This document shows, piece by piece, positions 4,839 to 35,590 of a stretch of DNA of 40,896 nt. The notes beneath the pieces are model-generated. The model ran no database searches and was not told the DNA's origin. It worked only from the letters and a program-made list of their open reading frames with translations. Location of the stretch: positions 1 to 40,896 of IMG/VR virus record IMGVR_UViG_3300015188_000003; one strand, written 5' to 3'. Made by a program: the position numbers and the translations under genes. Numbering within the stretch: position 1 is the stretch's first letter; every line of letters begins with the position of its first letter. Origin of the DNA: a virus (lineage: Duplodnaviria; Heunggongvirae; Uroviricota; Caudoviricetes).

Positions 4839-4866
4839 TCACCAGTAACTTACTGAGGGTATAATT

Positions 4867-12740: not shown

Positions 12741-12770
12741 GATAAGTAAAGCCCCGCCATAAAGCGGGGC
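12741..12770 (-). terminator. GC hairpin (GCCCCGC-CATAAA-GCGGGGC) plus U-tract; possible 3' end of leftward transcript from repeat element A
   Basis: 7-bp GC stem followed on - strand by TTTACTTAT. Confidence 0.4.
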
Positions 12771-12849
12771 GCTAGTCCTTATCATTTAAACATAGAAACG
12801 GCGTAATCTCAGTAAACCAGTTACTTTTTACACAAGCAATAGAGTATGG

Positions 12850-12979
12850 CCCTTCCGAACGCGTCAGCGTAACTACACTCAGGACTTACGTCCCGCTCCG
12901 TTACCTGCCCGCGCCGCGGTCGCTTGTTCATACTTCACAAGCTCAGGTGGAGCTTATCATATTTTTAGTGAAAAGTCAA
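12850..12979 (-). repeat. conserved ~130-bp intergenic element, copy A (candidate sRNA/leader; paralogue of 23858..23988)
   Basis: Long blocks identical to copy B with indels in the central part; contains candidate - strand promoter and an AAGCTC...GAGCTT hairpin. Confidence 0.6.
12951..12979 (-). promoter_or_regulatory. candidate leftward promoter TTGACT-N17-TAAGCT inside element A
   Basis: Conserved with identical spacing in copy B. Confidence 0.35.
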
Positions 12980-13045
12980 CTATTCGAATAGTTTATTCCA
13001 ACATTTACAATTCGGTGGAATAACTGGAATACGTAAATAAATAGT

Positions 13046-13074
13046 TTGCACACCCCAATATAATAGGGTACTAT
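13046..13074 (+). promoter_or_regulatory. sigma70-like promoter TTGCAC-N17-TACTAT with operator-like 18-mer (13060..13077)
   Basis: Same architecture as 4810..4838; precedes strong SD and + gene 13102. Confidence 0.45.
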
Positions 13075-13101
13075 TCAGTTAACTTAAACAGGAGGTGAAA
13101 A

Positions 13102-13305
13102 ATGTATGCAATTTGCGAAGTAGTTCAAGAGTTCGATGAAGAGTTCGACGGTGACTTGTGCCGGGTTAAAAAGGTTCTGCAGGTTTTCCCTGACGCAATG
13201 TCTGCTTACAAGGCATTAGATATATTTGAACCTGGAAGATACGGGGATTATGACACTGTTCTGAGGGTTGTCCATGAGCAGGATTTAAACACAAGATTCC
13301 GTTGA
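13102..13305 (+). CDS. small acidic protein (67 aa), accessory gene on opposite strand
   Basis: AGGAGGTG SD; own promoter and terminator; embedded between leftward head genes and spanins. Confidence 0.7.
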   Translation: MYAICEVVQEFDEEFDGDLCRVKKVLQVFPDAMSAYKALDIFEPGRYGDYDTVLRVVHEQDLNTRFR

Positions 13306-13335
13306 AAACTAAGGCCCCTTAATGGGGCCTTTTAT
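13306..13335. terminator. bidirectional terminator (AAGGCCCC-TTAAT-GGGGCCTT + T-run)
   Basis: GC hairpin between convergent genes. Confidence 0.7.
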
Positions 13336-14877: not shown

Positions 14878-14900
14878 AAGAAAGCCCCTTTCGGGGCTAT
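14878..14900 (-). terminator. hairpin AGCCCC-TTTC-GGGGCT with U-rich tail (partial terminator)
   Basis: Between portal and head morphogenesis genes. Confidence 0.4.
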
Positions 14901-14908
14901 AGGTGAAC

Positions 14909-16402
14909 TTACTGCTGAGTGGTGTCCTGTTGCTGCGCCGACTGCGGAATCTCTCCCGCTACCTGAGCAACAGAACCCAACGGCAGAGGTGCGTCTTCAA
15001 TAGCGTTCTGAATGTCCTCATCTGTCCAGTCAGTCACACCTGCCTTGCGCAACGCAGCATAGTAAGCGGTGGCGGGTAGCAGGCCAGCGTTAATATCCGC
15101 CATCCACTGAGCGCGGTCCTGAGCTGTCATAGGTTGCAGGAAGAATTCCATATTCAGCTTGAACTCAATCTCAGTATCTTCACTAAGCCCAAGCATACCC
15201 GCAACCCAGCGCAACGCATCGGTATACGCCATGCTTACATTACGTGCTATTGTTGCCATGACTGACGTGTCGGCGCCGCGTTGCAGCCGTGCCGATTCAG
15301 CGGTGATTTGCTGCGTCGGGGTGATAAGCTGCGCGCCAATCTGGATGGCCTGATTCTCTTTATCCAGCATATTCTGTTTGGCGAGGTTAGTTTCCGCCGC
15401 CTGAACCAGAAACGCATTGCCGCCGGAGCCGATGTTGTGGCCTGAACGCGACCCCATGCGTATGCCGTGTGGGTTGGCTTCTTTCCACTGCTCCATGCTC
15501 ATGTTCTCGCCGGGGGCAATGAACAGTGTCGGTTGACCTACTATAAAGCTGGCCTCTTCCACATCGGCCGAATTTCTGAAGTGTCCTATATTTAGCTCAG
15601 CTAACGGCAGTAAAGGCGCATCGTCTATAGTGGCGTCGTTGTTGCTTGCGCCGATGAACGTGAACGGAATCACCCCTACAGGAATATTACCGAGTTTCGG
15701 GAAGATTTCGATATAGCCTCCTTCCATCAGTGCGCCTTTCTGGTTAAAGCGGTACAGACGCTGGCGATACTGGCCTTCGAAGATGTCAAGGACGCGGTAT
15801 TGTTCACCATAGTTAGGGCTGAACTCATCCGTGCCGTCGGTGTACTCGTATTCTTCACGCAATACAACCATAACCACACGATTGACCGACCCGACGCGCT
15901 GAAGACGCCAGTTGATGATGTTCTCTGCGGTGTAGAAAGCGATTGTCGGGTTAAGTAATCCCTCGTTTTGCTCCGCCATAGTAGCGACTTCTACCGCAGG
16001 CGCGTCCACCAGCAAACCGCCACGACCAACAGCATCAATCTCATACAGGGTATCCTGCGCGTGCTGCCACAGACCAACGCCCGACCCATCGCAGTTAGTG
16101 GTCAGGTACTCCATCTGAGACGGAATAATCATCTCAGGGTCTTTGCGCATTACGCTACCTACCATGCCGGAAAGCGTTCTTTTGGTGAAGTTATAGCAAA
16201 TAGCCCCCGCTTCATATTCAGCCTGACGCTGGCGACCGTAAACTGGATCCGGCTCGTTCTTACCGACGTCACGTAAATATGATGTCAGGTCACCAGAAAG
16301 TGCGTGGCGTACCTTCTGCCATTTAGGAAAATATTCTTCGTACTGGCGGTGGCGGGTTTTAACGTTCTGCCCTTGCCCTGCGTTAATATTTGCGGAAACC
16401 AT
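14909..16402 (-). CDS. portal protein
   Basis: 497-aa ORF directly downstream of large terminase; AAGAGGA SD. Confidence 0.8.
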   Translation of the reverse strand: MVSANINAGQGQNVKTRHRQYEEYFPKWQKVRHALSGDLTSYLRDVGKNEPDPVYGRQRQAEYEAGAICYNFTKRTLSGMVGSVMRKDPEMIIPSQMEYLTTNCDGSGVGLWQHAQDTLYEIDAVGRGGLLVDAPAVEVATMAEQNEGLLNPTIAFYTAENIINWRLQRVGSVNRVVMVVLREEYEYTDGTDEFSPNYGEQYRVLDIFEGQYRQRLYRFNQKGALMEGGYIEIFPKLGNIPVGVIPFTFIGASNNDATIDDAPLLPLAELNIGHFRNSADVEEASFIVGQPTLFIAPGENMSMEQWKEANPHGIRMGSRSGHNIGSGGNAFLVQAAETNLAKQNMLDKENQAIQIGAQLITPTQQITAESARLQRGADTSVMATIARNVSMAYTDALRWVAGMLGLSEDTEIEFKLNMEFFLQPMTAQDRAQWMADINAGLLPATAYYAALRKAGVTDWTDEDIQNAIEDAPLPLGSVAQVAGEIPQSAQQQDTTQQ

Positions 16403-22583: not shown

Positions 22584-22612
22584 ATTATCTCTCCTCTCGT
22601 TTGTGTAAATGA

Positions 22613-22641
22613 ATAGTAGCCTATTCTATCTTAGTGTGCAA
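22613..22641 (-). promoter_or_regulatory. sigma70-like promoter TTGCAC-N17-TACTAT with operator 18-mer (22610..22627), leftward
   Basis: Reverse complement matches the 13046..13074 block. Confidence 0.45.
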
Positions 22642-22758
22642 GTAAATTTTATTGGTGTTTGTATTGTTGCATCTCCTGCAATAGCCGCTTCGATTGTTGC
22701 GTTTGGTGAAATAGAACAAAAATGAGAAAAATGATACGCTGCTGTGTAGCAGCGTAGG

Positions 22759-23616: not shown

Positions 23617-23650
23617 TTCTAAATTCCTTATGTCTCGTTTCGATAAGTGA

Positions 23651-23679
23651 ATAGTAACCTATTATGTTGGGGTGTGCAA
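23651..23679 (-). promoter_or_regulatory. sigma70-like promoter TTGCAC-N17-TACTAT with operator 18-mer (23648..23665), leftward
   Basis: Reverse complement near-identical to 13046..13077. Confidence 0.45.
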
Positions 23680-23714
23680 GAGAATAGTTACGTTGCCGTT
23701 GTGATTCTTTCGTT

Positions 23715-23777
23715 TCTTAAAAGAGTACGCAACGCAGTGGGTGGGCGTTAGCCCACCCCAGCGGAGTGAAGTACTCT
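23715..23777 (-). terminator. two-tier hairpin (outer AGAGTAC/GTACTCT, inner GGGTGGGC-GTTA-GCCCACCC) with U-rich tail; possible 3' end of transcript from element B
   Basis: Inverted repeats read directly; weak U-tract after outer stem on - strand. Confidence 0.35.
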
Positions 23778-23857
23778 CTACCTTGCTCACGGCAACTATA
23801 GAAACTTTTAATTATCAGTGACTTGGATATTTAGGCGGGATTAACAATAGACTTTGA

Positions 23858-23988
23858 CCCTTCCGAAAGCGTCAGCGGAACTACACTCAAGTGCCTAATG
23901 GCACGCGTTGCGTTCCCTGCCGCTCCGCGGTCGCTTGCGATATCTCACAAGCTCAGTGAAGCTTAGCATATTTTCAAGTAAAAGTCAA
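23858..23988 (-). repeat. conserved ~130-bp intergenic element, copy B (candidate sRNA/leader)
   Basis: Aligned with 12850..12979; shared blocks include CCCTTCCGAA.GCGTCAGCG.AACTACACTCA, CCGCGGTCGCTTG and TCACAAGCTCAG...AAAAGTCAA. Confidence 0.6.
23960..23988 (-). promoter_or_regulatory. candidate leftward promoter TTGACT-N17-TAAGCT inside element B
   Basis: Same boxes and spacing as in copy A. Confidence 0.35.
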
Positions 23989-24035
23989 TACCAGTAGCAT
24001 CTTTTGTATTTTAGTAACTTTGTGTGGTGTTTTGG

Positions 24036-24064
24036 TTGCTTTTACATTCACGCTATCCTATACT
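24036..24064 (+). promoter_or_regulatory. candidate rightward promoter TTGCTT-N17-TATACT for the replication block
   Basis: Only good -35/-10 pair upstream of the first + gene. Confidence 0.4.
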
Positions 24065-24095
24065 CGGTTTCACCAAACAAACAGGAGATATAAAA

Positions 24096-24278
24096 ATGCA
24101 GCATTACATGACACAGAATGAAGTAGCTGAACGTATAGGGGTGACACGTCAGACAATTAATAACTGGTTGCGCAGTGGTAAATTCCCGGATTGTTGTATT
24201 AAGGTTATGGGTCGCCGTTTACCAGGAACATTTGACCGTAATAAAGTTGAAGCATGGATTAAGGAGAACGTGAAATGA
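24096..24278 (+). CDS. small HTH DNA-binding protein (AlpA/excisionase-type fold, regulator)
   Basis: MTQNEVAERIGVTRQTINNWL helix-turn-helix; ATG with AGGAG SD (track start 24024 is GTG). Confidence 0.7.
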   Translation: MQHYMTQNEVAERIGVTRQTINNWLRSGKFPDCCIKVMGRRLPGTFDRNKVEAWIKENVK

Positions 24279-24487
24279 TTGGACGTATGGGTTGTTACTT
24301 TGAAAACTGTAAAGTTAAATACTGGTTTAAGTTTGCGTCGGAAATTACTGACAGCGGATTCTATGTGGAAATATGTAAGCCTAATAATTTGTCGGAACCT
24401 ACGCGCATTATTAAGATGTCAGCAGACGTGTTAAGTAAATGCCGCTTCTATGATTCCGAGCACGCGTGGTTTTCTGGTTGTAAATAA
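24275..24487 (+). CDS. Cys-rich hypothetical protein (70 aa)
   Basis: ATGA overlap with upstream gene; AT-rich. Confidence 0.6.
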   Translation: MIGRMGCYFENCKVKYWFKFASEITDSGFYVEICKPNNLSEPTRIIKMSADVLSKCRFYDSEHAWFSGCK

Positions 24488-24555
24488 AAGAAACCCCAAC
24501 GCCAGAACGTCGGGGCTAAAGTACAAATCATCAAAGTAAGCATAAGGATTATACA

Positions 24556-24684
24556 ATGACAAAGTTAATAGTTCCACAGCTACGCCGCCAGAAACACGGC
24601 GCTGACTTCTTCGCACCGGTAAAGATGAACCGCGCAATGCGCCGTATGCAGGAAGCCTTAGAACGTGCGGAGAAAAAGAAATGA
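24556..24684 (+). CDS. small basic protein (42 aa), not on ORF track
   Basis: AAGGA SD; stop overlaps primase ATG (ATGA). Confidence 0.4.
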   Translation: MTKLIVPQLRRQKHGADFFAPVKMNRAMRRMQEALERAEKKK

Positions 24685-26933
24685 ATATTGTTTTTGCAAC
24701 GCTGCGTAACACATTCGATAAAAACCCTGTAGCGCGTGAGATGCCGCTCGAGCAGTTTGTGGAGTATGTCTGCGATACATCGAAGCGTTTATCCGTGGAC
24801 CCGTCATGGACTAAGGAAGAGTACGACGCGGCCAAGATTAAACAGAAAGCTATTGCGCCTGTTGGCGGTCGCCGTAAGAACGCTATTCTGGAAGACAGTG
24901 TGGTTAAGTTCGATTTTGACCATCTCAACCGTACTCAGTACCGCGACCTTACCCGCAAATTCAAGAACGCACCGTTCTTCAATATTCTGCATACAACGGC
25001 ATCGCATCAGCATGTGTGTAAAAACGGTGATTACGCCTTCCGCGTTCTCGTACCGGCTCGCACGCCGTTTAACTCTAACGACGCGTGGATGGTCCAACGG
25101 GCTATTTGTGCAGAGTTAGAAATAGATGAAGCCTTGCGTGACCACTGCACGGAAGACGGCAACCGCCTTATCTATCTGCCACATAGAGAGTCAAAGATAA
25201 CGGTTACAGAAGGGCGCGTTATCCGTGCCGAGCGGTACATCAAGAAAGCCGAAGAGATGGGGTTGAGTAAACGTGAAGTTAAGACACTTGCCGCCGATGA
25301 GTATGGGCTTAACGCTGATATAGCGCATTTCTGCGAAGCCGAGCTTGGCCTTGACGCTTTATCTTCCGGGCGCGGGTACGAAGTCCCATGTCCTAACGAA
25401 CATCTGCATACAGGCAAAGGCTCCACAAGCATCATGCTTGATGGTAAAGAAGTGCGCTTTGTGTGCCAGCATACAAACAACGGCGCTTGCACCGAGCTTA
25501 ACCGCCGACAGCATTTGGCCCTGCGTATGTGCGGCCTGCCAGACGAGCTTAACGTAGACAAGCAACCTATCAGTATTAACAGCATTCGTGCGGCTCTGCC
25601 TGATTTACCGGATGAAGAGATTGAAGAACTGCACCGCACAGAGAACGAGGAGCCTGTAACTTGCACGCTGGAAGACCTTGAAGAAGAGGACGAGTTACCA
25701 GAACCGGTAAAGGCTGATTTCGTCGTTGAGGGGTACATGCCGTCGGATTGTATCTGGGATATTGTCGGGGAATCCGGCACGTACAAATCATTCTATACGC
25801 TGGGGATGATGTACCTGAGCGCCGCCGGGTACCGGTTTGCGGGGGCTGACACCCAACGTTGCCACCATTTCTATATTGACGGCGAGGGTGGTGCAGCTAC
25901 ACGAACACGTATTGATGCACTCGCGGCTAAATATGGCGAGGAAGGTAAAGATTATGTACATGTCATCGATATGGGCGAAATACTCGCTACGCATGGTGAT
26001 AAAAAAATTCCAGCTCTAATCCGCAGGATGCGCGAAACCGCAGGGGATGAACCTATTGGCATGGTTGCCTTCGACACCCTTAACCAGACGCTGGCCCTGA
26101 CGATTGATAAGTTCGACGAGAACAGTTCATCAACGGCAATCGGTATGGGTAAAGTTATCGCCATCCTGAAAGAAGTGCGCGATGCAACTAAAGCCGCTGT
26201 CGGTGTCGTTCACCATACTCCGAAGGGCGGAAAGAAAGCCCGCGGCAGTGGAGCATTGTATGCGGGTGTCGACGTGGAACTGACAATCGAACGCGCTACC
26301 GACCGTCAGATAAACGTATACCACTCTAAATTTAAGCACGGTCCGCAACAGAAGACGGTTGGCATGGTACTGGAGTCTGTACAGTTCCGTGAAGCACCGC
26401 CGCCGAAAGAGTACCGCGCGGTTGAGTTCCTCGGTAGCACAGAGGAATACGGCACAATAGTAAACCTCGACCTGCCTGAGCCGCACAAGGCGCTTGTATT
26501 GATGCCGTGGGGCTTCGAGCCATTCAAGACCGACGAGGAGAAAGAGAGGGAAGAAGGGTTAACTAACGAAGGTAAACAAAATGTACGTAAAACCATAGAG
26601 AACGCCGTCAACAGTTCCGAGGCCACGATACTCGCGGCGTTTGAACTGGCGGAGGGGACCTACAACGGCAACGAGGGCATCACGGTATCCGCAGCGAATA
26701 AGCTCGCGCAGTCTGACCCCAACGCAAAGGCGTTTAACTCCAAAGAAGCCATAGAACGCGGGAAGATTAAGAAAATGGTTGAGGCTGGGTATCTTGTTCC
26801 GGGTACTGACGAAAACAATCAGATAATCACAGGCCGTTACAGGCTGAATACCCGGATAACGGATAACAAGATTCCGAAGACACTATACGAACCGAATGAA
26901 ATGCTGGTGGTGACCGAGGATGATTTGGAATAA
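24681..26933 (+). CDS. replicative primase-helicase (primase-like N-terminal region, RecA/DnaB-like ATPase C-terminal region)
   Basis: 750 aa; Walker A-like VGESGTYKS; KFDFDH acidic motif; first large gene of replication block. Confidence 0.65.
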   Translation: MNIVFATLRNTFDKNPVAREMPLEQFVEYVCDTSKRLSVDPSWTKEEYDAAKIKQKAIAPVGGRRKNAILEDSVVKFDFDHLNRTQYRDLTRKFKNAPFFNILHTTASHQHVCKNGDYAFRVLVPARTPFNSNDAWMVQRAICAELEIDEALRDHCTEDGNRLIYLPHRESKITVTEGRVIRAERYIKKAEEMGLSKREVKTLAADEYGLNADIAHFCEAELGLDALSSGRGYEVPCPNEHLHTGKGSTSIMLDGKEVRFVCQHTNNGACTELNRRQHLALRMCGLPDELNVDKQPISINSIRAALPDLPDEEIEELHRTENEEPVTCTLEDLEEEDELPEPVKADFVVEGYMPSDCIWDIVGESGTYKSFYTLGMMYLSAAGYRFAGADTQRCHHFYIDGEGGAATRTRIDALAAKYGEEGKDYVHVIDMGEILATHGDKKIPALIRRMRETAGDEPIGMVAFDTLNQTLALTIDKFDENSSSTAIGMGKVIAILKEVRDATKAAVGVVHHTPKGGKKARGSGALYAGVDVELTIERATDRQINVYHSKFKHGPQQKTVGMVLESVQFREAPPPKEYRAVEFLGSTEEYGTIVNLDLPEPHKALVLMPWGFEPFKTDEEKEREEGLTNEGKQNVRKTIENAVNSSEATILAAFELAEGTYNGNEGITVSAANKLAQSDPNAKAFNSKEAIERGKIKKMVEAGYLVPGTDENNQIITGRYRLNTRITDNKIPKTLYEPNEMLVVTEDDLE

Positions 26934-26960
26934 GTAAAAAGAAAGGGGCATTAAGCCCCT
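26931..26960 (-). terminator. terminator for the regulator gene (AGGGGC-loop-GCCCCT + U-tract on - strand)
   Basis: Hairpin overlaps stop of 26951..27166. Confidence 0.6.
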
Positions 26961-27166
26961 TCACCGAACGCCAGCCACTTGGCGTCTACTTGTAGCACTT
27001 CCGCCAGCTTGAACAGCGTCGCCGGCCGGACGTCCTGAGTTACCCCGAGCGCAAGCTGGTTAATCGCGCCCTGGGAAACGCCAGCCAGGACCGCCAGACG
27101 GCGCTGGGAGATGCCGAGTTCTTTACGGCGTTGTTCTACGCGGATACCTAGTTCAGATGGTTGCAT
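26951..27166 (-). CDS. XRE/Cro-CI-type HTH transcriptional regulator (71 aa)
   Basis: LGISQRRLAVLAGVSQGAINQL helix-turn-helix; divergent from operator-bearing promoters. Confidence 0.8.
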   Translation of the reverse strand: MQPSELGIRVEQRRKELGISQRRLAVLAGVSQGAINQLALGVTQDVRPATLFKLAEVLQVDAKWLAFGEGA

Positions 27167-27186
27167 GTCAATTATTCCTTAGTCAG

Positions 27187-27215
27187 TTGATATGTGAATA
27201 GTACCATATTAATTA
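27187..27215. promoter_or_regulatory. operator 18-mer TGAATAGTACCATATTAA (27195..27212) in divergent region with weak promoter elements
   Basis: Motif family member 25 nt upstream of the regulator start codon. Confidence 0.4.
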
Positions 27216-27230
27216 TTTTAGAAAAGCCCA

Positions 27231-27259
27231 TTGACACGTGAATAGTTCGCTATTATAGT
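27231..27259 (+). promoter_or_regulatory. strong sigma70-like promoter TTGACA-N17-TATAGT with operator 18-mer in the spacer (27239..27256)
   Basis: Consensus -35, 17-bp spacer; operator occupies the spacer. Confidence 0.55.
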
Positions 27260-27290
27260 TAACCCATACCAAACGAGAGGAGAGAAACAA

Positions 27291-27791
27291 ATGTTAGAAC
27301 AATTCTTAAAATTACTGGAACGTTTCGTAGTTGCACATGAACTGATTGCGGCGAACAGCGTTCGCCGTACGGAACTGCCGAAGGCCATTACTGCGCCGTA
27401 TGGTAAAGACGCTGACAGCGGTGATGCAGAAACCGCAACAATCGCGACGACAAAAGAACTTCCAGTAGAAGGTGAAGACGTCGTCGACACTAAACCGGCG
27501 GAAGAAGAGAAGCCGAAACGCAAGCCGCGTAAAGCTAAGGCGGAGGAGCCAGCACCAGAACCGGAAGAGGATAAAGAAGAAGTCGATTACCAGTCTCTGC
27601 GCGACCAGATTCAGGCTATAGACGATGCTATTAACGAAGGCCCGAGCGATGCCGCGTGCGACGACTCTGATGAACTGCTGGAAGAGTTCACCGGCAAGAA
27701 GATGAAGATTGCCGCGATTAAAGACGAAGACCTGGCTGAATACCTGGAGCGCCTGACCGCGATTAAGAACAAGTATTTCGAAGAAGAATAA
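27291..27791 (+). CDS. highly acidic early protein (166 aa), function unknown
   Basis: AGGAG SD; Glu/Asp-rich with PEK-rich linker; first gene after operator-controlled promoter. Confidence 0.75.
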   Translation: MLEQFLKLLERFVVAHELIAANSVRRTELPKAITAPYGKDADSGDAETATIATTKELPVEGEDVVDTKPAEEEKPKRKPRKAKAEEPAPEPEEDKEEVDYQSLRDQIQAIDDAINEGPSDAACDDSDELLEEFTGKKMKIAAIKDEDLAEYLERLTAIKNKYFEEE

Positions 27792-27796
27792 TTTAT

Positions 27797-27817
27797 CGGC
27801 GGCCTTCGGGCCGCTTT
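27797..27817 (+). terminator. weak terminator/attenuator hairpin (GCGGCC-TTCG-GGCCGC + TTT)
   Basis: Tetraloop hairpin right after stop at 27791. Confidence 0.35.
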
Positions 27818-27834
27818 AACAGAGGGTCGGAAAT

Positions 27835-28107
27835 ATGATTTACCAACTCTACCGCGGCATCGACCGACGGGATAACACAGAGGCGTTGTGGCTGTTGCGT
27901 GCGCCGACAGGTGCACACCAGATGGAGGAGATGGCCTACCTCGGAAAAGTACCGAAGCCGAAAGATATAGGCCGTCACCTGTCGCAGATTAAGCGTACGA
28001 CTTTCGTTAAAAGTGACTTTTATGTCTTCGAGTCTATGTATAGCTGGGCGATGCATTGCCAGCACAAAACTCGGCATTTAATTGACCAGTGGGAGGTCAG
28101 GGTATGA
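27835..28107 (+). CDS. hypothetical protein (90 aa)
   Basis: AGAGGG SD; ATGA overlap with nuclease gene. Confidence 0.65.
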   Translation: MIYQLYRGIDRRDNTEALWLLRAPTGAHQMEEMAYLGKVPKPKDIGRHLSQIKRTTFVKSDFYVFESMYSWAMHCQHKTRHLIDQWEVRV

Positions 28108-29345
28108 TTTTGAAAGAACGCGGTGGCAATAACGATGTGCACGCTCTGCTGTCGCCGTCTGGTGCTAAGAAATGGTTGGCGTGCAGTGCATCGCTGGCAT
28201 GTGAAAAAGACATTCCTAACACGTCAGGTAAAGCCGCCATATCAGGCACGGCTATGCACACGATATCTGAGATTCACCTGAATCAGTACATCAAAGGAAC
28301 TGCTTTGCCGTTAGAACGAGAAGTCGGCGCTTACGTGCTGGATGAGGGTAAAGGTCAGATTAAGGCGCTAATCAGTCCGATGAAAGGTGCGGTACTTATT
28401 ACGGCTGACATGATTGAGCAGGTACGCAAGTACACCGACTACTGCAAAGCGATTATTGACGTGGCGACTTACGCTAAGCTGGAGATGCGCGTAAATCTTA
28501 CTGAGGTGCTGCATCCGGGTTACGAAGGCGTTGAGACGTTCGGAACCGCCGACCTTGTAGCCGTGCAGGAACTGGCTAACACCGACGGGCACATGCTCAT
28601 TATCGGTGACCTGAAAACCGGGCGACATCGTGTCGAAGCGAAAGAAAACAAGCAGCTTATGCTTTACGCTCTCGGTGTTTATCGCCGACTCAAGAGACGC
28701 TATAACATCACCGTGGTTCGTCTGGTCATCTTCCAGCCGTATGCTGGAGGCGCGTCGGAATGGGACATCTCGGTTGAAGGTCTGGAGCTGTTCGCTAAGT
28801 TCGCGCGGAAACGAGCGCTGTTAGCCCTTGATGCTTATTCCCGTGGCAAGAAGAACCTTAAAGCGTCGGACTTCAAGCCGTCGGTAGATGGTTGTCAGTG
28901 GTGTCGTTTCTCGGAACAGTGCGCAGCTCGTACAAAAACCGTTAACGCGGTACTGGCGGAAGAACTTGAGGACGACTGTGCGCTGGAACTTACGCCAGAG
29001 CAACTCGTCGCTGAGTATGAGAAGCTGCCGTTGTTGCGCCAGCACATCGACAAGGTTGAGAAAGCGATGGCTGCTGCTTTGCATTCAGGTAAGAAAGTGC
29101 CAGGATACAAACTGGTTGAAGGTCGCCCCGGTAATCGTGCGTGGAAAGATACCGACGCAGTATTCGAGAAGTACGGTACTATGCTGCAAAAGGTAGTTCT
29201 TATGACACCGACCGAAGCGGTTAAAATTGTACCGGAAGAAGAACTGAAAGACTTCATTACCCGTAAGCCCGGTGCGCCATGCGTCGCAACGGCGGATGAC
29301 ACACGTCCTGAGTGGAATCAAGTTACAGAGGAGGATTTAGAATGA
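28104..29345 (+). CDS. PD-(D/E)xK nuclease, Cas4/RecB-like with Cys cluster (DUF2800-like)
   Basis: GDLKTG and QLMLYALG nuclease motifs; C-terminal CQWCRFSEQC; ATG 28104 (track start 28089 alternative). Confidence 0.7.
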   Translation: MILKERGGNNDVHALLSPSGAKKWLACSASLACEKDIPNTSGKAAISGTAMHTISEIHLNQYIKGTALPLEREVGAYVLDEGKGQIKALISPMKGAVLITADMIEQVRKYTDYCKAIIDVATYAKLEMRVNLTEVLHPGYEGVETFGTADLVAVQELANTDGHMLIIGDLKTGRHRVEAKENKQLMLYALGVYRRLKRRYNITVVRLVIFQPYAGGASEWDISVEGLELFAKFARKRALLALDAYSRGKKNLKASDFKPSVDGCQWCRFSEQCAARTKTVNAVLAEELEDDCALELTPEQLVAEYEKLPLLRQHIDKVEKAMAAALHSGKKVPGYKLVEGRPGNRAWKDTDAVFEKYGTMLQKVVLMTPTEAVKIVPEEELKDFITRKPGAPCVATADDTRPEWNQVTEEDLE

Positions 29346-29545
29346 TTCAAGTAAATGAAATGCCGACTGATAAAGATTTTTTGATGGTATGGCGCTGGGA
29401 TGGGTATCTACACTCGGAATCGTTCACGTTCTTGAACGGTACCATGATGCGATACGACCCTGTAGAGGATGAGTTCGAACCGGCCAATATGCTTAATTTC
29501 GAGAACATAATCCCTATTGCAAAATTTTATTTGACACATGAATAG
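29342..29545 (+). CDS. hypothetical protein (67 aa)
   Basis: ATGA overlap with nuclease stop; last codons overlap promoter 29531..29559. Confidence 0.6.
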   Translation: MIQVNEMPTDKDFLMVWRWDGYLHSESFTFLNGTMMRYDPVEDEFEPANMLNFENIIPIAKFYLTHE

Positions 29546-29559
29546 TTAGCTATTATAGT
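29531..29559 (+). promoter_or_regulatory. sigma70-like promoter TTGACA-N17-TATAGT with operator 18-mer (29539..29556), overlapping the 3' end of the upstream CDS
   Basis: Same architecture as 27231..27259. Confidence 0.5.
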
Positions 29560-29617
29560 TCTAATCACTGGCCGGGCAGATCCCGGAGTAAACTGAAACT
29601 GAAAAGCGAGAAATCAA

Positions 29618-30244
29618 ATGGGACTGAAATTAAATCTGCGTAAAGTAAACACTGCCTGGGTTAACGTATTCGAACGCGAAAAAGACCGTGAAAACGACGA
29701 TGGCTCAATCACTAAAGGTCAGTACAGCGCTACTATTATCCTGCCGTCCGACCACGCGCAAATCGACGCGCTCTACGACACCGTTTACGCGGTAGTCGAA
29801 GAAGCGTTAGGCGCCGCCGCTGCCGAGAAATGGATGAAGTCCAACTACGGCGAAGGTAAGCACATGGATAAATGTGCGATTAAAGACATTGCCGAGCGCG
29901 ACAATCCGTTCGAAGACTTCCCGGAAGGCTTCTACTTCAAAGCGAAGGCACAGAAACAGCCTCTGATTGTAACCTCTAAAAAAGGTGAAACTCAGGTAGA
30001 GCCTGACTTCAACGTTGAAGGCGAACAGATTGAAGGTGGACAGGTTTACAGCGGCTGCGTTGCCAACGTAAGCGTGGAAGTCTGGTTTAGCCAGAAATAC
30101 AAAGTTCTCGGTGTTAACCTGCTGGCAATTAAATACGTCGGCGAAGGTAAAGCGTTTGGTGGTTCTAAAGTTGCCGCCAGCGTCAACGACCTGGAAGACG
30201 ACGAAGAAGATGAAGCACCTCGCCGCGAACGTCGCCGCCGTTAA
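29618..30244 (+). CDS. DUF2815-like putative ssDNA-binding protein
   Basis: 208 aa with acidic C-terminal tail, between Cas4-like nuclease and DNA polymerase. Confidence 0.55.
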   Translation: MGLKLNLRKVNTAWVNVFEREKDRENDDGSITKGQYSATIILPSDHAQIDALYDTVYAVVEEALGAAAAEKWMKSNYGEGKHMDKCAIKDIAERDNPFEDFPEGFYFKAKAQKQPLIVTSKKGETQVEPDFNVEGEQIEGGQVYSGCVANVSVEVWFSQKYKVLGVNLLAIKYVGEGKAFGGSKVAASVNDLEDDEEDEAPRRERRRR

Positions 30245-30261
30245 TATCTGAATCAATTTAA

Positions 30262-30288
30262 CTAAGGCCCTTCATTGGGCCTTTTTAC
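30262..30288 (+). terminator. rho-independent terminator (AAGGCCC-TTCATT-GGGCCTT + T-run)
   Basis: GC hairpin then TTTTT after stop at 30244. Confidence 0.65.
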
Positions 30289-30303
30289 TAAGGGTCGAAA
30301 ATA

Positions 30304-32505
30304 ATGAGTTACCTGTTCTTAGACTTTGAGACATTCTCCGAAGCCGATTTAAAGAAAGTCGGCTCTTACGCTTACGCCGAACACCCAACTACAGAAGTGC
30401 TTATCTGTACATATGCTTTTGACGACGAGCCTGTTCAGGTGTGGGATTGCACCGACGGCAGCGACATGCCGGGCGATTTGCACCGCGCGCTACGTCGCCT
30501 GATTAAGCCAAACAGCCGTATTAAGATGGTGTGGCACAACGGTGGACTTTTCGATAGGCTCGTCATGAAGCACTGCTGGGGCTTTGATATTCCCGTAAGC
30601 AACACCATTGATACGATGATTTGGGCGTTTCGTCACGCGCTGCCGGGGTCACTCGATGCGCTGTGCGAAGTGCTGGGCGTGTCTGCAGACAACGCGAAAG
30701 ACAAACGCGGCAAGGCGCTGATTCAGCGTTTTTCTAAACCTACGCCAAAGAACTACAAAATCCGCCGCTATACCGCGGAAACGCACCCGGATGAGTGGGC
30801 GCTGTTTATCAAGTATGCCGTGAGTGACATCACAGCGATGCGTGAAGTGTTCCATAAGCTGCCGCGGTGGGGTAACTCCGAATTCGAAGACCGTGTACTG
30901 GAACTGGACCAGTTAATCAACGACCGTGGGTTTAAGGTTGATGTGACGCTGGCGGAAGCCGCGATTGAAGCCGTGGAAAAACACAAGGCCCAGTTACAGG
31001 AAGAAGCCCAACGCAAATACGGCGGCTCACTTACCGGTAAAGACTTTCTGCCGATTCTGCGTGAACTTGCGCCAGCGCACCGCATTCACAACGCGCAGAA
31101 GTCAACGCTTAACGACCTGCTGGCGGACGATGATTTACCGGACGACGCCCGCGCGATTATAGAAATGCGCCTCGGGGCGGCATCCACTGCGTCAACGAAA
31201 TATAGCCCTCTGCTGTTGGGCCGCTCGTCTGACGACCGTCGTCGCGGTTGCCTGCAGTACGGTGGGGCAAAACGTACTCTGCGATGGGCCGGTAAAGGCT
31301 TCCAGCCACAGAACCTGGCACGCGGTTACTATCACGATGATGAGCTGGATAAAGGCATTTCGGCGTTACTTAAGGGCCGCGCCCATCGCCGTTTCGATGT
31401 AGCCAAGCTAACAGCATCGACGGTTCGTAGCTGCATTATCCCGGAAGCAGGACATAAGTTTGTCGTCGCCGATTACTCGAACGTTGAAGGCCGAGGGCTT
31501 GCGTGGCTGGCTGGTGAAGAAACCGCCCTCGATACGTTCCGCGCTGGACTGGATATTTACTGCGTAACAGCAGGTAAGATGTTCGGTATGGACCCCGACG
31601 ATATTAAGAAAAACTTCAAGGAAATCAGGCAGATAGGCAAGGCTTGCGAACTCGGCCTCGGCTATGAGGGGGGCGTCGGAGCGTTCGTTACGTTCGCTAA
31701 AAACTTAGGTCTTGATCTTATCGAGATGACAAAAACAATGGACGGTACATTCCCCGACCACATATGGGCTGCTACCGCACGTGGCTATGAGTGGGCGCGT
31801 ATCCAGGAAGCAAAGCGACCGCCGCATCCGGGTGAAAAGGATGACCGACCATCGTATATCCTCGATAAGAAAGTGTGGCGTACTTGTGATGCTATCAAGC
31901 GTATGTGGCGCGAGTCACACCCCGAAACAGTAGCGTTCTGGCGCGACCTTAAAGACGGAATTTTAGCCGCTGTTCGTAATCCTGGTCGTGAATTTTGGGC
32001 AGGGGCACACTTGCGCAGGAATGGGGAAAGGGCTATCCGCATATGGCGTACTGTGGAATTTGATTCATCCGGTAGGAAGGTTCCGGGTTGGTGGTTGTGT
32101 ATGGAGTTGCCGTCAGGCCGTATCCTCTCATATCCGGGAATCGGCGTTAGTGTGACAAAGGAAACCGACGAAGACGGACGGGTAAATACGAATGTGCGAA
32201 TAAAATATAAGGGCGAAAACCAGTTAACCCGCCAATGGACTACCCTGTACACCCACGGCGGCAAAGCCTGCGAAAACATTGTTCAGGCGCTGTGCCGTGA
32301 TTTACTTGCGTATGCGATGATTAATGTTGAGGGTGGCGGGTATCCCATCGTGCTTTCGGTACACGATGAATTAGTGTGTGAAACTCCTGATACACCTGAG
32401 TACACGGTGGCTGAACTGGAGAAATTAATGTGTTCGCTGCCCGAGTGGGCTGAGGGGTTCCCTCTTGTAGCAGAAGGTGCGGAGATGAAGCGTTATGCCA
32501 AGTAA
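30304..32505 (+). CDS. family A DNA polymerase with 3'-5' exonuclease domain
   Basis: 733 aa; N-terminal FLDFETFS exonuclease motif; C-terminal polymerase-like region. Confidence 0.85.
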   Translation: MSYLFLDFETFSEADLKKVGSYAYAEHPTTEVLICTYAFDDEPVQVWDCTDGSDMPGDLHRALRRLIKPNSRIKMVWHNGGLFDRLVMKHCWGFDIPVSNTIDTMIWAFRHALPGSLDALCEVLGVSADNAKDKRGKALIQRFSKPTPKNYKIRRYTAETHPDEWALFIKYAVSDITAMREVFHKLPRWGNSEFEDRVLELDQLINDRGFKVDVTLAEAAIEAVEKHKAQLQEEAQRKYGGSLTGKDFLPILRELAPAHRIHNAQKSTLNDLLADDDLPDDARAIIEMRLGAASTASTKYSPLLLGRSSDDRRRGCLQYGGAKRTLRWAGKGFQPQNLARGYYHDDELDKGISALLKGRAHRRFDVAKLTASTVRSCIIPEAGHKFVVADYSNVEGRGLAWLAGEETALDTFRAGLDIYCVTAGKMFGMDPDDIKKNFKEIRQIGKACELGLGYEGGVGAFVTFAKNLGLDLIEMTKTMDGTFPDHIWAATARGYEWARIQEAKRPPHPGEKDDRPSYILDKKVWRTCDAIKRMWRESHPETVAFWRDLKDGILAAVRNPGREFWAGAHLRRNGERAIRIWRTVEFDSSGRKVPGWWLCMELPSGRILSYPGIGVSVTKETDEDGRVNTNVRIKYKGENQLTRQWTTLYTHGGKACENIVQALCRDLLAYAMINVEGGGYPIVLSVHDELVCETPDTPEYTVAELEKLMCSLPEWAEGFPLVAEGAEMKRYAK

Positions 32506-32626
32506 ACTGATTATCGCGGTACTGGCTGGATTCGCCGCCGGTGTTTACTGTCATGAGGGTCAGTACGGCATGATGGTTGCCGTATTGGGTATATTCATCG
32601 CAATTTATCTGTGGGTGCTGGAATGA
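32495..32626 (+). CDS. small hydrophobic membrane peptide (43 aa), not on ORF track
   Basis: MPSKLIIAVLAGFAAGV...; overlaps polymerase stop and next ATG. Confidence 0.35.
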   Translation: MPSKLIIAVLAGFAAGVYCHEGQYGMMVAVLGIFIAIYLWVLE

Positions 32627-32721
32627 AAATTTACTGGTTATATGAAGAAGACTGTCGAATCTGCCCTCGCTGCGGTATCGCGCATACGAAACGGGAGGGG
32701 TGTATAGATGAGTACGCCTGA
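32623..32721 (+). CDS. small Cys-rich (CxxCxxC) peptide (32 aa), not on ORF track
   Basis: ATGA overlap upstream; DCRICPRCG zinc-ribbon-like motif. Confidence 0.3.
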   Translation: MKIYWLYEEDCRICPRCGIAHTKREGCIDEYA

Positions 32722-32995
32722 GGGGCGCGTGCAGAAATACGCAAAAGAGCGATTCGAGGCCCTGGGAGGCCTCGTACGCAAATTGTCGTACGAGGGGCGT
32801 TCCGGCGCCCCCGACCTGCTGGTAATTCTCCCTGGTGGCATCATCTGGTTCGTCGAGGTTAAGAAAGACGAAAACACGAAGCCGGACCCGCACCAGTTAC
32901 GAGAGCACGAGCGGATGCGTAAACGTGGTGCAAATGTTTTTGTCGTTGGTTCGTTTAAACAGGTTGACGACCTAATAGCGGGCTATTATAGTTAA
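32708..32995 (+). CDS. VRR-NUC domain nuclease
   Basis: GAPDLLVILPGGIIWFVEVKK...PHQ resembles VRR-NUC core. Confidence 0.7.
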   Translation: MSTPEGRVQKYAKERFEALGGLVRKLSYEGRSGAPDLLVILPGGIIWFVEVKKDENTKPDPHQLREHERMRKRGANVFVVGSFKQVDDLIAGYYS

Positions 32996-33025
32996 TCACA
33001 CACCAACAATATAAGGAATTGAGAA

Positions 33026-33217
33026 ATGAAACACGAATACGACCGCAAACCAGCACGTGACATCGTACCGGGTGACATGATTTTCAACGTTAAGACACGT
33101 CAACCTGTTGCCGTTGATACGGTGTTCGTCGAGTCGAACGGTAAACTGGTTATCGAAGATGTAACGGGTAACGTTACGGCGTTCGGGCGTAAAGAGCTGG
33201 TGCTGGTGGCGAAATGA
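33026..33217 (+). CDS. hypothetical protein (63 aa)
   Basis: AAGGA SD; ATGA overlap with methyltransferase gene. Confidence 0.65.
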   Translation: MKHEYDRKPARDIVPGDMIFNVKTRQPVAVDTVFVESNGKLVIEDVTGNVTAFGRKELVLVAK

Positions 33218-34008
33218 ACTATTACAATGAATGGGATAAAGGCGCAGCCGCGTGGCTGCGTGAGTTGATAAAACAGGGTCACATACCTTTTGGAGTTGTA
33301 GATGAAAGAAGCATTACCGAAGTTAAGCCAGAAGACCTTGACGGGTTCACCCAGTGTCATTTTTTCGCGGGTATCGGCGGCTGGCCTCTCGCGCTCAGAC
33401 TTGCGGGAGTTTCTGAAGATACGCCTATATGGACGGGAAGTCCGCCTTGCCAACCGTTTAGCACGGCAGGAAAGCAACTCGGACAGTTCGACCAGAGACA
33501 CCTCGCACCTGTGCTCCTCGACCTCATCAGCGAGTGCCACCCTCCAGTCATCTTTGGGGAGCAGGTTGCGGCAGCAATTGCAAAATCGTGGATGTGCGAT
33601 TTACAAACTCACCTGGAAAGAGAAGACTACGCCGTCGGGTTTGCCGTACTCCCAGCTTGTAGCGTCGGCGCACCGCACAAAAGGAATCGATTGTTCTTCG
33701 GAGCGCAGCAACTGGCCAACACCGTGTGCGAACAACTCGGCGGGAGCAGGCCATCAGGGCAGGAACGGGGGCCACAATCTGCAAACAGAGGCATCTCTGA
33801 CACAGCCAATCCGCCTAACGGGTTCTGGTCAGATGCTGACTGGCTCGGATGCCGGGATGGAAAATTCAGGCCAGTTGAACCCAGCACATTCCCGCTGGCT
33901 AATGGGGTACCCGCCAGAGTGGGACGATTGCGCGGTTACGGCAATGCTATCGTCCCGCAAGTAGCCGCTGAATTTATAAAGGCGTTCATGGGGGCCGTAA
34001 ATGAGTAA
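33214..34008 (+). CDS. DNA (cytosine-5)-methyltransferase, compact; possible internal frame disruption
   Basis: Motif I FFAGIGGW, motif [26 protein letters not shown] in track frame; canonical [16 protein letters not shown]-type motif sits in the +1 frame (33302..33964). Confidence 0.7.
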
Positions 34009-35559: not shown

Positions 35560-35560
35560 A

Positions 35561-35590
35561 GAAAAGGCCCCAAACGGGGCCTTAGTTTTA
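35561..35590. terminator. bidirectional terminator between replication block and tailspike (AAGGCCCC-AAAC-GGGGCCTT)
   Basis: Perfect 8-bp GC stem with A/T runs on both sides between convergent genes. Confidence 0.75.

What the first reader, a model, noticed from the sequence alone, without database searches (positions are those of the whole stretch)
23858..23988. Second copy of the conserved element sits in the divergent control region between the early and replication blocks
Copy B lies in the ~480-bp region that separates leftward early transcription from rightward replication-gene transcription, flanked by promoters 23651..23679 and 24036..24064. That placement suggests a role in the early switch (antisense/sRNA regulator or transcription-factor binding platform).
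Basis: inference. Interest (0 to 1): 0.5.

Follow-up and report, generated by a model that had tools for sequence, protein, structure and literature searches.

The report
Self-promoted structured leader RNA, duplicated
The "element" is a compact cassette, a host-type promoter fused to a roughly 110-nt folded RNA read leftward, whose older copy heads the capsid-gene operon of most Guernseyvirinae phages and whose second copy was inserted ahead of the early genes; the RNA family is in no database and its job is untested.

Summary
Copy B (23845-23988) and copy A (12837-12979) are 79% identical (E 2e-26). They are the only two copies in this Kagunavirus genome.

The right-hand 29 nt of each copy is a sigma70 promoter with an extended -10 (TTGACT-17-TGnTAAGCT). 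It fires leftward on the minus strand and is invariant in every complete copy examined. The remaining ~110 nt is a transcribed RNA with a 5'-terminal hairpin, a long irregular hairpin and a single-stranded GGAAGGGCC...CUAUUG tail.

- Across E. coli-phage and diverged Salmonella-phage versions, 15 of 26 pairs covary and 93% of cells are paired (0/500 shuffles).
- G.U pairs favour the minus strand, 37 against 3.
- There is no Rfam hit, no homology to HK022 put and no E. coli match.

Copy A sits directly upstream of spanin-scaffold-capsid genes that have no other evident promoter. Copy B occurs in about a quarter of genomes that carry the element. It replaces an unrelated promoter-leader cassette found in K1G and Jerseyviruses.

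Best reading: a cis-acting promoter-plus-5'-leader cassette. The mechanism is unresolved between transcript protection, put-like read-through and a protein operator. It is a new RNA family of a known general kind and moderately interesting.

The parts
23983..23988 (-). -35 hexamer TTGACT of the element's own promoter (P_B)
   Evidence: Invariant in all 47 complete copies first collected. Also invariant in 67 copies / 40 distinct upstream sequences when anchored on the RNA motif. A/B homology starts exactly here.
23960..23968 (-). Extended -10 of P_B: TG-c-TAAGCT, 17-nt spacer from the -35; predicted start at A23953/G23954
   Evidence: TG and TAAGCT are invariant, while the 'n' and six spacer positions vary. 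The homologous site of copy A is annotated 'Host promoter1' in the fBC-Eco01 GenBank record.
23845..23954 (-). Copy B transcribed structured RNA domain: P0 5' hairpin, long P1-P2-P3 hairpin, GGAAGGGUC...CUAUUG tail
   Evidence: CM R1 95.3 bits. MFE -45.2 kcal/mol, z -3.55. Covariation.
23778..23844 (-). AT-rich linker after copy B (GC 0.37 against 0.51 for the genome); the cassette boundary with K1G-type phages lies at about 23824
23719..23777 (-). Compound GC-rich hairpin (AGAGUAC...GGGUGGGC-UAAC-GCCCACCC...GUACUCU) followed by UUU; terminator-like or a processing site
   Evidence: Local fold -32.9 kcal/mol, z -3.1. 96% conserved in K1G, which lacks copy B. Not called by the strict terminator scan.
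23651..23679 (-). Repeated 'box' promoter TTGCAC-17-TACTAT with an AATAG..CTATT palindrome, directly upstream of the leftward early genes
   Evidence: Copies at 4810, 13046 and 23644-23679, plus a weaker copy at 22595-22642. The motif is reported by PHIRE in PMC9825357.
24036..24064 (+). Rightward promoter-like TTGCTT-17-TATACT ahead of the HTH gene (24096-24278) and the primase-helicase gene
   Evidence: Read from the sequence; not scored by the consensus scan.
12951..12979 (-). Copy A promoter P_A: TTGACT (12974-12979), 17 nt, TG-a-TAAGCT (12951-12959); predicted start G12944
12837..12944 (-). Copy A structured RNA domain
   Evidence: CM R1 133.6 bits. Its MFE fold equals the covariation model. 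Conservation peak of 0.99 mean pairwise identity.
12742..12770 (-). GC-rich leader hairpin GCCCCGC-UUUA-UGGCGGGGC plus UUUACUUAU, 16 nt before the spanin ribosome site (ATG at 12726)
   Evidence: Terminator-like. Sits at a fixed distance in all E. coli-class A copies, with compensatory variants. Jerseyvirus versions keep the hairpin but have a poor U tract.
12980..12991 (.). Palindrome CTATTCGAATAG abutting the -35 of P_A (centre near -41.5); absent from copy B

Best explanation
What it is (high confidence, about 0.85): copy B is a self-contained leftward transcription cassette. It consists of a sigma70 promoter with an extended -10 (TTGACT-17-TGnTAAGCT, 23988-23960) fused to a ~110-nt structured RNA (23954-23845, minus strand). 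It is a duplicate of the cassette at 12979-12837, which heads the spanin-scaffold-major capsid-tail operon.

How it most likely works (umbrella claim, about 0.6; this is the confidence given for this entry): the RNA acts in cis as the 5' leader of the leftward transcripts it starts.

My commitment within that umbrella (about 0.3 absolute) is a transcript-protecting, expression-boosting leader of the ompA-5'UTR type. Host RNA polymerase starts 2 nt before P0, so the RNA begins with a hairpin that blocks 5'-end-dependent decay. The long G-rich P1-P3 hairpin and the C-poor, AT-rich linker leave little for Rho or RNase E to grip. The single-stranded Shine-Dalgarno-like GGAAGGG plus the UUG 10 nt later loads a ribosome on a 1-10-codon mini-ORF. 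Transcription and the message then continue through the downstream GC hairpin into the genes.

This does not explain why P1 and the junctions are invariant in sequence. That suggests the core helix also docks a conserved partner; the transcribing RNA polymerase (put-like) or a protein are the candidates listed as rivals.

Shown: the two copies, the promoter-shaped conservation, the RNA fold, the strand and the gene context. Inferred: the start site, cis action, stabilisation and ribosome loading.
For: - **Cassette boundaries.** A/B homology begins exactly at the -35 hexamer and ends at CUAUUG; the flanks are unrelated.
- **Promoter.** TTGACTTTT, TG and TAAGCT are invariant, while the 'n' and six spacer positions vary, in 67 copies / 40 distinct sequences. 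Jerseyvirus versions keep the architecture as TAGACT-17-TGnTACGCT, and phage pink as TGGACT-17-TGaTAACCT. An independent predictor placed 'Host promoter1' on the same 29 nt in fBC-Eco01.
- **Fold.** 93% of cells are paired, against 30-41% when partners are slid. 15 of 26 pairs have changes on both sides (0/500 shuffles). P0 is wholly replaced, GCUUG/CAAGC becoming ACGCU/AGCGU. Four divergent versions fold to the same architecture on their own.
- **Strand.** 37 G.U cells on the minus strand against 3 on the plus strand. RNAalifold gives -25.8 against -18.2 kcal/mol.
- **Context.** Copy A lies 16 nt of hairpin tail from the spanin ribosome site. I found no other convincing promoter between the upstream bidirectional terminator (13311-13331) and the capsid genes. 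The layout is the same in Snoke, SETP7 and fBC-Eco01. The 0 to +250 stretch is a conservation peak, 0.96-0.99 against 0.83-0.95 in the downstream genes.
- **Portability.** RNA classes swap between the A and B slots (L178, L133). Copy B replaces another promoter-leader in K1G and SP-101.
- **Leader features.** The hairpin starts at +3. The SD-like GGAAGGG resembles the phage's own spanin ribosome site AAGGGG. UUG is invariant in all but one version.
Against: - There is no transcript data, so the start site, RNA ends and stability are all predictions.
- P1 and the internal loops are far more sequence-constrained than a stabiliser needs.
- In the Jerseyvirus class the predicted start falls inside P0, leaving only 3-5 bp of it in the RNA.
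- The SD-to-UUG spacing (10 nt) is long, and pse-D34 has UCG instead of UUG.
- A GC hairpin, terminator-like in the window, lies between the leader and the genes, so a discrete ~195-230-nt RNA is equally possible.
- The alignment used for the largest covariation count was fitted to the model, and the variants fall into only about six lineages.
Confidence: 0.6

Rival explanations
1. RNA-polymerase-modifying antiterminator or anti-pausing RNA (works like HK022 put). The nascent leader folds, stays bound to the polymerase that made it, and carries it through the GC hairpin 70-120 nt downstream and through later terminators in the long leftward operons.
For: Like putL/putR, there are two similar copies, each just downstream of a promoter at the head of a separate operon, with two stem-loops carrying 'indents' (put facts from PMC9378689). 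A terminator-like hairpin follows both copies. Further minus-strand terminator-like sites lie inside the leftward units, at 22756-22735 and 14898-14883. Near-invariant P1 and junction sequence across E. coli and Salmonella phages fits a conserved host partner. No Q-, N- or RinA-like protein was found.
Against: There is no homology to put: CM best 6 bits, E about 3, on the HK022 PL/PR region. The leader hairpin has a weak U tract, degenerate in the Jerseyvirus class (UUAGCGUAU), so read-through may need no help. Box-type promoters re-start transcription after internal terminators. The capsid operon has no strong internal terminator before 6640-6621.
Confidence: 0.2
2. Operator for a phage or host RNA-binding protein. 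The sequence-invariant P1/junction core and the GGAAGGGCC tail would bind a regulator that times or autoregulates expression of the downstream genes, as with nut/N or scaffold- or gp32-type autogenous control.
For: Conserved nucleotides cluster in internal loops and the single-stranded tail, while the peripheral helices (P0, P2, P3) vary freely. Strong host-type promoters in front of late genes would otherwise lack temporal control (inference).
Against: No candidate RNA-binding protein was identified. There is no boxA or boxB motif. Copy B ahead of early genes does not fit scaffold-type autoregulation.
Confidence: 0.15
3. Stand-alone trans-acting small RNA of about 195 nt (copy A) or about 230 nt (copy B), ended by the downstream hairpin and acting on host or phage targets.
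For: It has its own promoter, a structured body and a terminator-like 3' hairpin. In copy A the whole 0 to +250 unit, linker included, is nearly invariant. The B slot always holds a strong promoter whose transcript meets a hairpin before the next promoter.
Against: The capsid operon would then have no evident promoter of its own. The Jerseyvirus hairpin is a poor terminator. The U tail is too short for an Hfq-type sRNA. There is no significant complementarity within the phage and no similarity to E. coli genomes. The A and B linkers are unrelated.
Confidence: 0.15
4. Replication origin. A strong promoter would make a G-rich transcript that forms an R-loop next to an AT-rich stretch and primes the T7-like replisome (primase-helicase 24681-26933, PolA 30304-32505).
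For: Copy B sits at the main divergent junction beside the replication genes. The RNA is G-rich (37-39 G against 23-25 C) and is followed by an AT-rich linker of GC 0.35-0.37. K1G has a consensus promoter plus AT-rich DNA in the same slot.
Against: The widespread copy lies in the capsid region. Selection is on RNA pairing, which opposes R-loop formation. Copy B is dispensable in most relatives.
Confidence: 0.05
5. One reading: a plus-strand antisense or sRNA regulator, or a transcription-factor platform, for the early switch.
For: Its location is between divergent promoters. A weak plus-strand hairpin followed by a T-run lies at the right end.
Against: No conserved plus-strand promoter exists; the sequence upstream of CAATAG differs between copies A and B. 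The plus-strand 'terminator' stem is the -10/+1 region of the minus-strand promoter. G.U counts and alifold energies favour the minus strand. No transcript lies opposite. Compensatory changes indicate RNA rather than a protein-DNA site.
Confidence: 0.04

Closest known systems
HK022 putL/putR processive antitermination RNAs
   Same: Two similar copies per genome, each promoter-proximal at the head of a separate operon. Two stem-loops with bulges, and terminator-like hairpins downstream. No dedicated protein factor is evident.
   Different: No sequence or structure homology. The domain is 108-110 nt rather than about 70 nt. The host is a virulent siphovirus and both copies are on the same strand. 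The downstream hairpin is a weak terminator. Activity is untested.
Lambda PR'-6S RNA-tR' late leader (Q/qut system)
   Same: For copy A: a sigma70 promoter, then a ~195-nt untranslated leader ending in a hairpin, then lysis (spanin) and morphogenesis genes with no other evident promoter.
   Different: No Q-like gene was found. Here the leader RNA itself is under structural selection, which is not known for lambda 6S RNA. A second copy lies ahead of early genes.
ompA-type 5' UTR mRNA stabiliser (5'-terminal hairpin hp1, second hairpin hp2, single-stranded ribosome-binding segment; Belasco laboratory work, cited from memory)
   Same: A hairpin within 2-3 nt of the predicted 5' end whose sequence is free but whose pairing is kept. 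Then a second long hairpin, then a single-stranded SD-like segment. The module is portable.
   Different: The SD-like segment serves at most a 1-10-codon mini-ORF, not the main gene. A further hairpin and 60-120 nt separate it from the first gene. The core helix is sequence-invariant.
T7 early-region RNase III processing hairpins (R0.3, R1.1 and others; from memory)
   Same: Repeated irregular hairpins of about 20-22 bp with internal loops in untranslated regions of a phage that uses host polymerase for these genes.
   Different: The conserved loop sequences exceed what RNase III needs. The hairpin is fused at a fixed distance to its own promoter. Cleavage is untested.

Membership tests
HK022 put RNA | Sequence/structure homology to putL/putR | tested here: not met
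   CM R1 run with filters off over the HK022 24000-36000 region (PL-putL...PR-putR): best hit 6 bits, E 2.9.
HK022 put RNA | Two-stem RNA just downstream of a promoter, two copies heading separate operons | tested here: met
   P0 plus the P1-P3 hairpin start at +3. The copies lie at 23954-23845 and 12944-12837.
HK022 put RNA | Factor-independent suppression of terminators in cis, dependent on the beta' zinc-binding domain | not testable with these tools
   Needs in vitro transcription and rpoC mutants.
Lambdoid Q/qut late control | Constitutive promoter, short terminated leader, then late genes | tested here: inconclusive
   The layout is met for copy A. However, the hairpin's U tract is weak and degenerate in Jerseyviruses.
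Lambdoid Q/qut late control | Q-family antiterminator gene | tested here: not met
   PHROGs and Pfam scans of 20 small or unknown ORFs gave no Q, N or RinA/ArpU family.
Lambda N/nut | boxA (CGCUCUUA) plus a boxB hairpin in the leader | tested here: not met
   No boxA-like string in either leader.
Any Rfam family (riboswitch, ribozyme, sRNA, C4/CI antisense, 6S, tRNA-like) | Covariance-model match | tested here: not met
   No gathering-score hit in the window. Zero hits at E<=10 over copy B and only noise over copy A. No tRNA or tmRNA. Rfam also finds nothing at gathering score over the HK022 immunity region (locus 3500-6200), where putL/putR are expected to lie, so its silence does not exclude put-like RNAs.
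Sigma70 extended -10 promoter | -35-like hexamer, 17-nt spacer, TG at -15/-14, -10 hexamer with A at position 2 and T at position 6, conserved while the spacer varies | tested here: met
   Independent prediction in the fBC-Eco01 record. Promoter activity itself was not tested.
Hfq-type terminated sRNA | Rho-independent terminator with a long U tail; conserved single-stranded seed | tested here: inconclusive
   The hairpin is present, but the tail is UUUACUUAU (E. coli class) or UUAGCGUAU (Jerseyvirus class). No target was found.
Protein-coding gene (as annotated in several GenBank records) | Conserved reading frame | tested here: not met
   Copies differ by 1-, 2- and 4-nt indels. No ORF of 50 aa or more overlaps it. 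Substitutions are compensatory in helices.

The most novel reading that the evidence does not exclude
The leader is a second, evolutionarily independent class of protein-free antiterminator RNA that reprogrammes RNA polymerase. It would be functionally like HK022 put but unrelated in sequence and fold. It would be used by hundreds of virulent Guernseyvirinae phages to drive their capsid operon, and would be portable enough to have been copied in front of the early genes.
Probability: 0.2. Interest if true: 0.75.

Novelty: new variant of a known kind. Interest (0 to 1): 0.58.

Why it matters
Guernseyvirinae (Kagunavirus, Jerseyvirus) are among the most frequently isolated E. coli and Salmonella phages and are used for therapy and phage engineering. 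Their transcription programme is nevertheless unstudied. This cassette appears to be the entry point of the morphogenesis operon. It is more conserved than the genes it precedes. GenBank records either leave it unannotated or annotate it as a tiny 'hypothetical protein'.

If it is a stabilising or read-through leader, it is a compact, portable expression module for E. coli. It is also an obvious place to avoid, or to exploit, when engineering these phages. If it binds RNA polymerase, it would be only the second phage RNA of that kind. Either way, it is a well-supported candidate for a new RNA family.

Tried and rejected
- **Known RNA families.** Rfam at gathering and at E<=10, and ARAGORN, gave nothing.
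- **Plus-strand sRNA reading.** Rejected: there is no shared upstream promoter, the alifold result is worse, and there are 3 G.U cells against 37.
- **Coding reading.** Rejected because of frame-breaking indels.
- **A third or degenerate copy.** None in the window, or in the B slot of K1G or SP-101.
- **put homology.** None.
- **Host origin or host mimicry.** No blastn match in 5,426 E. coli genomes.
- **Q/N/RinA-like antiterminator proteins.** None found.
- **Classical riboswitch-style alternative pairing.** No conserved complementarity between the domain and the downstream hairpin in copies A and B (by eye).
- **Scans that led nowhere.** A 14-base IMG/VR pattern gave almost only chance hits. 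The promoter-only pattern found no other RNA family sharing this promoter.
- **Literature.** The Golestan, fBC-Eco01 and BASEL papers, and searches for Jerseyvirus transcriptomes, contain no description of the element.

Full report
**Identity of the window.** The 40,896-nt window is a complete Kagunavirus genome (Guernseyvirinae, a siphovirus of E. coli). The region is 96-100% identical to phiEc4, fFiEco02 and vB_Eco_K-01. The first and last 141 nt are identical. Genes run leftward from 23616 to about 1: small early genes, lysis, terminase, portal and head genes, then, after copy A, spanin, scaffold, capsid and tail genes. They run rightward from 24096: HTH, primase-helicase, SSB and PolA.

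**Check of the observation.** blastn of 23681-24100 against the window gives one significant second hit: 23845-23988 against 12837-12979, same strand, 78.9% over 147 nt, E 1.8e-26. A covariance model built later finds exactly these two copies and nothing else above 14 bits. Copy B lies in the 479-bp gap between the leftward gene start at 23616 and the rightward HTH gene start at 24096. TTGCAC-17-TACTAT at 23679-23651 on the minus strand is one of a repeated box family. TTGCTT-17-TATACT lies at 24036-24064 on the plus strand. Neither reaches the consensus-scan threshold.

**What the element is: a promoter.**
- Aligning 22 distinct copies from related phages and IMG/VR contigs shows that A/B homology begins abruptly at AAAAGTCAA on the plus strand, which is TTGACTTTT on the minus strand. 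It ends at CAATAG, which is CUAUUG on the minus strand. The flanks are unrelated.
- Read on the minus strand, the first 29 nt are TTGACT, a 17-nt spacer, then TG-n-TAAGCT.
- All 47 complete copies first collected carry this exact pattern.
- When copies are instead anchored on the RNA motif, there are 67 copies and 40 distinct upstream sequences. In these the -35, TG and -10 are invariant, while the 'n' and six spacer positions vary. That is the signature of an extended -10 sigma70 promoter.
- Diverged Jerseyvirus versions keep the architecture as TAGACT-17-TGnTACGCT, and phage pink as TGGACT-17-TGaTAACCT.
- The fBC-Eco01 GenBank record carries an independent 'Host promoter1' prediction on exactly these 29 nt of its copy A.
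- The predicted starts are G12944 for copy A and A23953/G23954 for copy B.

**What the element is: a structured RNA.**
- Downstream of the start, the first hints were compensatory differences between A and B: GGAC/GUCC against GUGCC/GGCAC, and GUAAC/GUUAC against GGAAC/GUUCC.
- RNAalifold prefers the minus strand, -25.8 kcal/mol (covariation term -1.5) against -18.2 (-0.4).
- I defined a model with four elements. P0 is a 5-bp hairpin starting at +3. P1 is 9 bp with a bulged C and two G.U pairs. P2 is 8 bp in two blocks with a bulged G. P3 is a variable apical hairpin.
- On a CM-guided alignment of E. coli-phage copies, 92.9% of cells pair, against 27-41% when partners are slid, and 7 pairs change on both sides.
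- A wider blastn search showed that most Salmonella Jerseyviruses carry a diverged version in the same slot. The CM scores these at 34-43 bits, E 1e-8 to 1e-10.
- In these, P0 is entirely replaced (UACGCU-UUC-AGCGUA), P2 and P3 are re-written, and P1 and the UUCGGAAGGGCC...YUAUUG tail are unchanged.
- With them, 15 of 26 pairs show changes on both sides, in 70 cells, with 93.0% paired. Zero of 500 shuffles reach this on each of those three measures and on the covariation score; the count of further pair types does not stand out (350/500). Slid controls give at most 4 such pairs.
- Caveats: that alignment is fitted to the model, the Golestan class uses a shifted P2 register (CGAGC/GCUCG), and the variants fall into about six lineages.
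- Four divergent versions fold on their own into the same architecture. The MFE structure of copy A reproduces the model's helices, plus one small extra 3' hairpin.
- G.U cells number 37 on the minus strand against 3 on the plus strand. One variant turns a P0 U-A pair into U.G (L174).
- Frame-breaking indels exclude a coding reading.

**Context of copy A.** The cassette lies between a bidirectional terminator (13311-13331) and the spanin gene, whose ATG is at 12726.
- After the 108-nt domain come a 66-nt AT-rich linker and a GC hairpin at 12770-12751 with tail UUUACUUAU. The spanin ribosome site follows 16 nt later.
- I found no other convincing promoter ahead of spanin, scaffold, major capsid and the tail-tube genes. 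Consensus hits in the region are at chance level.
- The layout is the same in Snoke, SETP7 and fBC-Eco01.
- Among 23 E. coli-class loci, positions 0 to +250 are a conservation peak, 0.96-0.99 mean pairwise identity. The downstream genes score 0.83-0.95 and the upstream region 0.25-0.34.
- The hairpin keeps its position and covaries (GCCCUGC/GCAGGGC, GCCCGGC/GCCGGGC, GCCCGAC/GUCGGGC). In Jerseyviruses its tail is UUAGCGUAU, which makes it a poor intrinsic terminator.

**Context of copy B.**
- After the domain come a 67-nt AT-rich linker and a compound hairpin at 23777-23722 followed by UUU. Then come the box promoter (23679-23651) and the early genes.
- Only about a quarter of the records that carry the element have a second copy: 224 places in 181 records.
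- In K1G and Jerseyvirus SP-101 the slot holds a different strong promoter (TTGACA-17-TAAAAT or TAAGTT) and an unrelated leader of about 270 nt. Homology to the window resumes at 23824, at 96%, and includes the compound hairpin and the box. The CM finds no degenerate copy there.
- RNA classes move between slots. L178 has a GZMU-class RNA in the A slot, and L133 has an A-like RNA in the B slot.
- Copy B is therefore a portable promoter-leader cassette that replaced another one.

**Mechanism.**
- Firmly supported: a leftward promoter fused to a folded RNA.
- Most probable (about 0.6): the RNA acts in cis as the 5' leader of the transcripts it starts. Copy A is the only evident promoter of an essential, highly expressed operon. 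The Jerseyvirus hairpin is too weak a terminator to make a discrete sRNA by termination.
- My commitment within cis action (about 0.3 absolute): a transcript-protecting leader.
  - The hairpin sits within 2-3 nt of the 5' end, and its pairing rather than its sequence is conserved.
  - The body is G-rich and structured, and the linker is C-poor.
  - A single-stranded SD-like GGAAGGG (GGGAGG in the Golestan class) resembles the phage's own spanin site.
  - It lies 10 nt before a UUG, invariant in all but one version, that opens mini-ORFs of 1-10 codons. These include UUG-UAA start-stop pairs.
  - This parallels the ompA 5' UTR stabiliser, which I cite from memory.
- What this does not explain: the sequence invariance of P1 and the junctions. 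A put-like polymerase-binding role (0.2) or a protein operator (0.15) therefore remain serious rivals.
- Less likely: a trans-acting sRNA (0.15) and an origin primer (0.05).

**Comparison with known systems.**
- No Rfam family matches.
- The HK022 put region gives 6 bits with my model.
- Rfam itself has no gathering-score hit over the HK022 immunity region where putL/putR should lie. Its silence therefore does not exclude put-like RNAs.
- There is no Q-, N- or RinA-like protein and no boxA.
- There is no similarity to 5,426 E. coli genomes.
- Papers on Golestan, fBC-Eco01 and the BASEL Kagunaviruses mention only PHIRE or ARNold predictions, not this RNA.

**Verdict.** The element is a new, well-supported structured-RNA family fused to its own promoter. 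It probably serves as the 5' leader of the morphogenesis operon and, in this phage, also of the early leftward operon. I rate it a new variant of a known kind (promoter-proximal structured leaders), with interest about 0.58.

Noticed in passing
window 1-141 and 40756-40896: The first and last 141 nt are identical. This is most simply an assembly overlap of a circularly permuted genome rather than a biological terminal repeat.
   Followed up: no
window 4810-4841(+), 13046-13081(+), 23644-23679(-), 22595-22642(-); also 27187, 27231, 29531, 32964 (+): Two promoter families (TTGCAC-17-TACTAT 'box' and TTGACA-17-TATTAT) both carry an AATAG-N4-CTATT palindrome between the -35 and -10. This looks like a shared operator for a phage repressor, possibly the Cro/CI-like 71-aa protein (26951-27166) or the 60-aa HTH (24096-24278). 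The fBC-Eco01 paper lists the same motif as a 'phage RNA polymerase promoter', although these phages encode no RNA polymerase.
   Followed up: partly
window 12980-12991 and 12969-12985: The palindrome CTATTCGAATAG abuts the -35 of the copy A promoter, centred near -41.5. AATAG-TTGA-CTTTT also overlaps the -35 as an imperfect copy of the operator. Copy B has neither, so the two otherwise identical promoters may be regulated differently.
   Followed up: no
window 12951-12956 / 12937-12943, and L359 371-405: The -10 hexamer and one arm of P0 are repeats of each other and change together between classes: TAAGCT with AGCTTg in E. coli phages, and TACGCT (twice) with AGCGTA in Jerseyviruses. This may be a sigma-dependent pause element, a DNA-level operator or a duplication relic. 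It is unexplained.
   Followed up: partly
window 23845-23862 and 12837-12854; L123, L157, L122 B copies: The SD-like GGAAGGG/GGGAGG plus the invariant UUG open mini-ORFs of 1-10 codons. In Golestan, KMB36 and Snoke B copies these are UUG-UAA start-stop pairs. Phage pse-D34 has UCG instead of UUG.
   Followed up: partly
L228 (K1G) 2176-2203 against window 12747-12774: K1G's alternative leader in the B slot contains a 28-nt hairpin identical to the copy A leader hairpin, but inverted relative to transcription. This is evidence that these regulatory modules are shuffled.
   Followed up: no
L365 (Salmonella phage pink) 360-480; L361 (Serratia phage Tsm2) 500-600: More distant Guernseyvirinae keep the same promoter type and a CGGAAGGGCC / AUUCGGAAAG motif upstream of the spanin gene. 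Their RNA is otherwise not alignable (10 and 4.6 bits), so further classes of the family probably exist.
   Followed up: partly
L367 213-329, L359 414-533, L122 6449-6559 and 37709-37816, L158 520-663: Several GenBank records annotate 35-47-aa 'hypothetical proteins' across the RNA domain. Given the indels and the compensatory substitutions, these are probably mis-calls.
   Followed up: partly
window 13102-13305(+): A 67-aa ORF driven by a box promoter is the only rightward gene inside the leftward late block. The same slot holds different cargo in relatives: a sliding-clamp-like gene in Snoke, two small ORFs in Golestan, and nothing in SETP7.
   Followed up: no
window 6619-6649, 14879-14909, 35562-35592, 13311-13331: A family of near-identical GGCCCC-loop-GGGGCC bidirectional terminators marks operon ends. 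The one at 14883-14898 sits inside the leftward unit, between the portal and head-morphogenesis genes.
   Followed up: no
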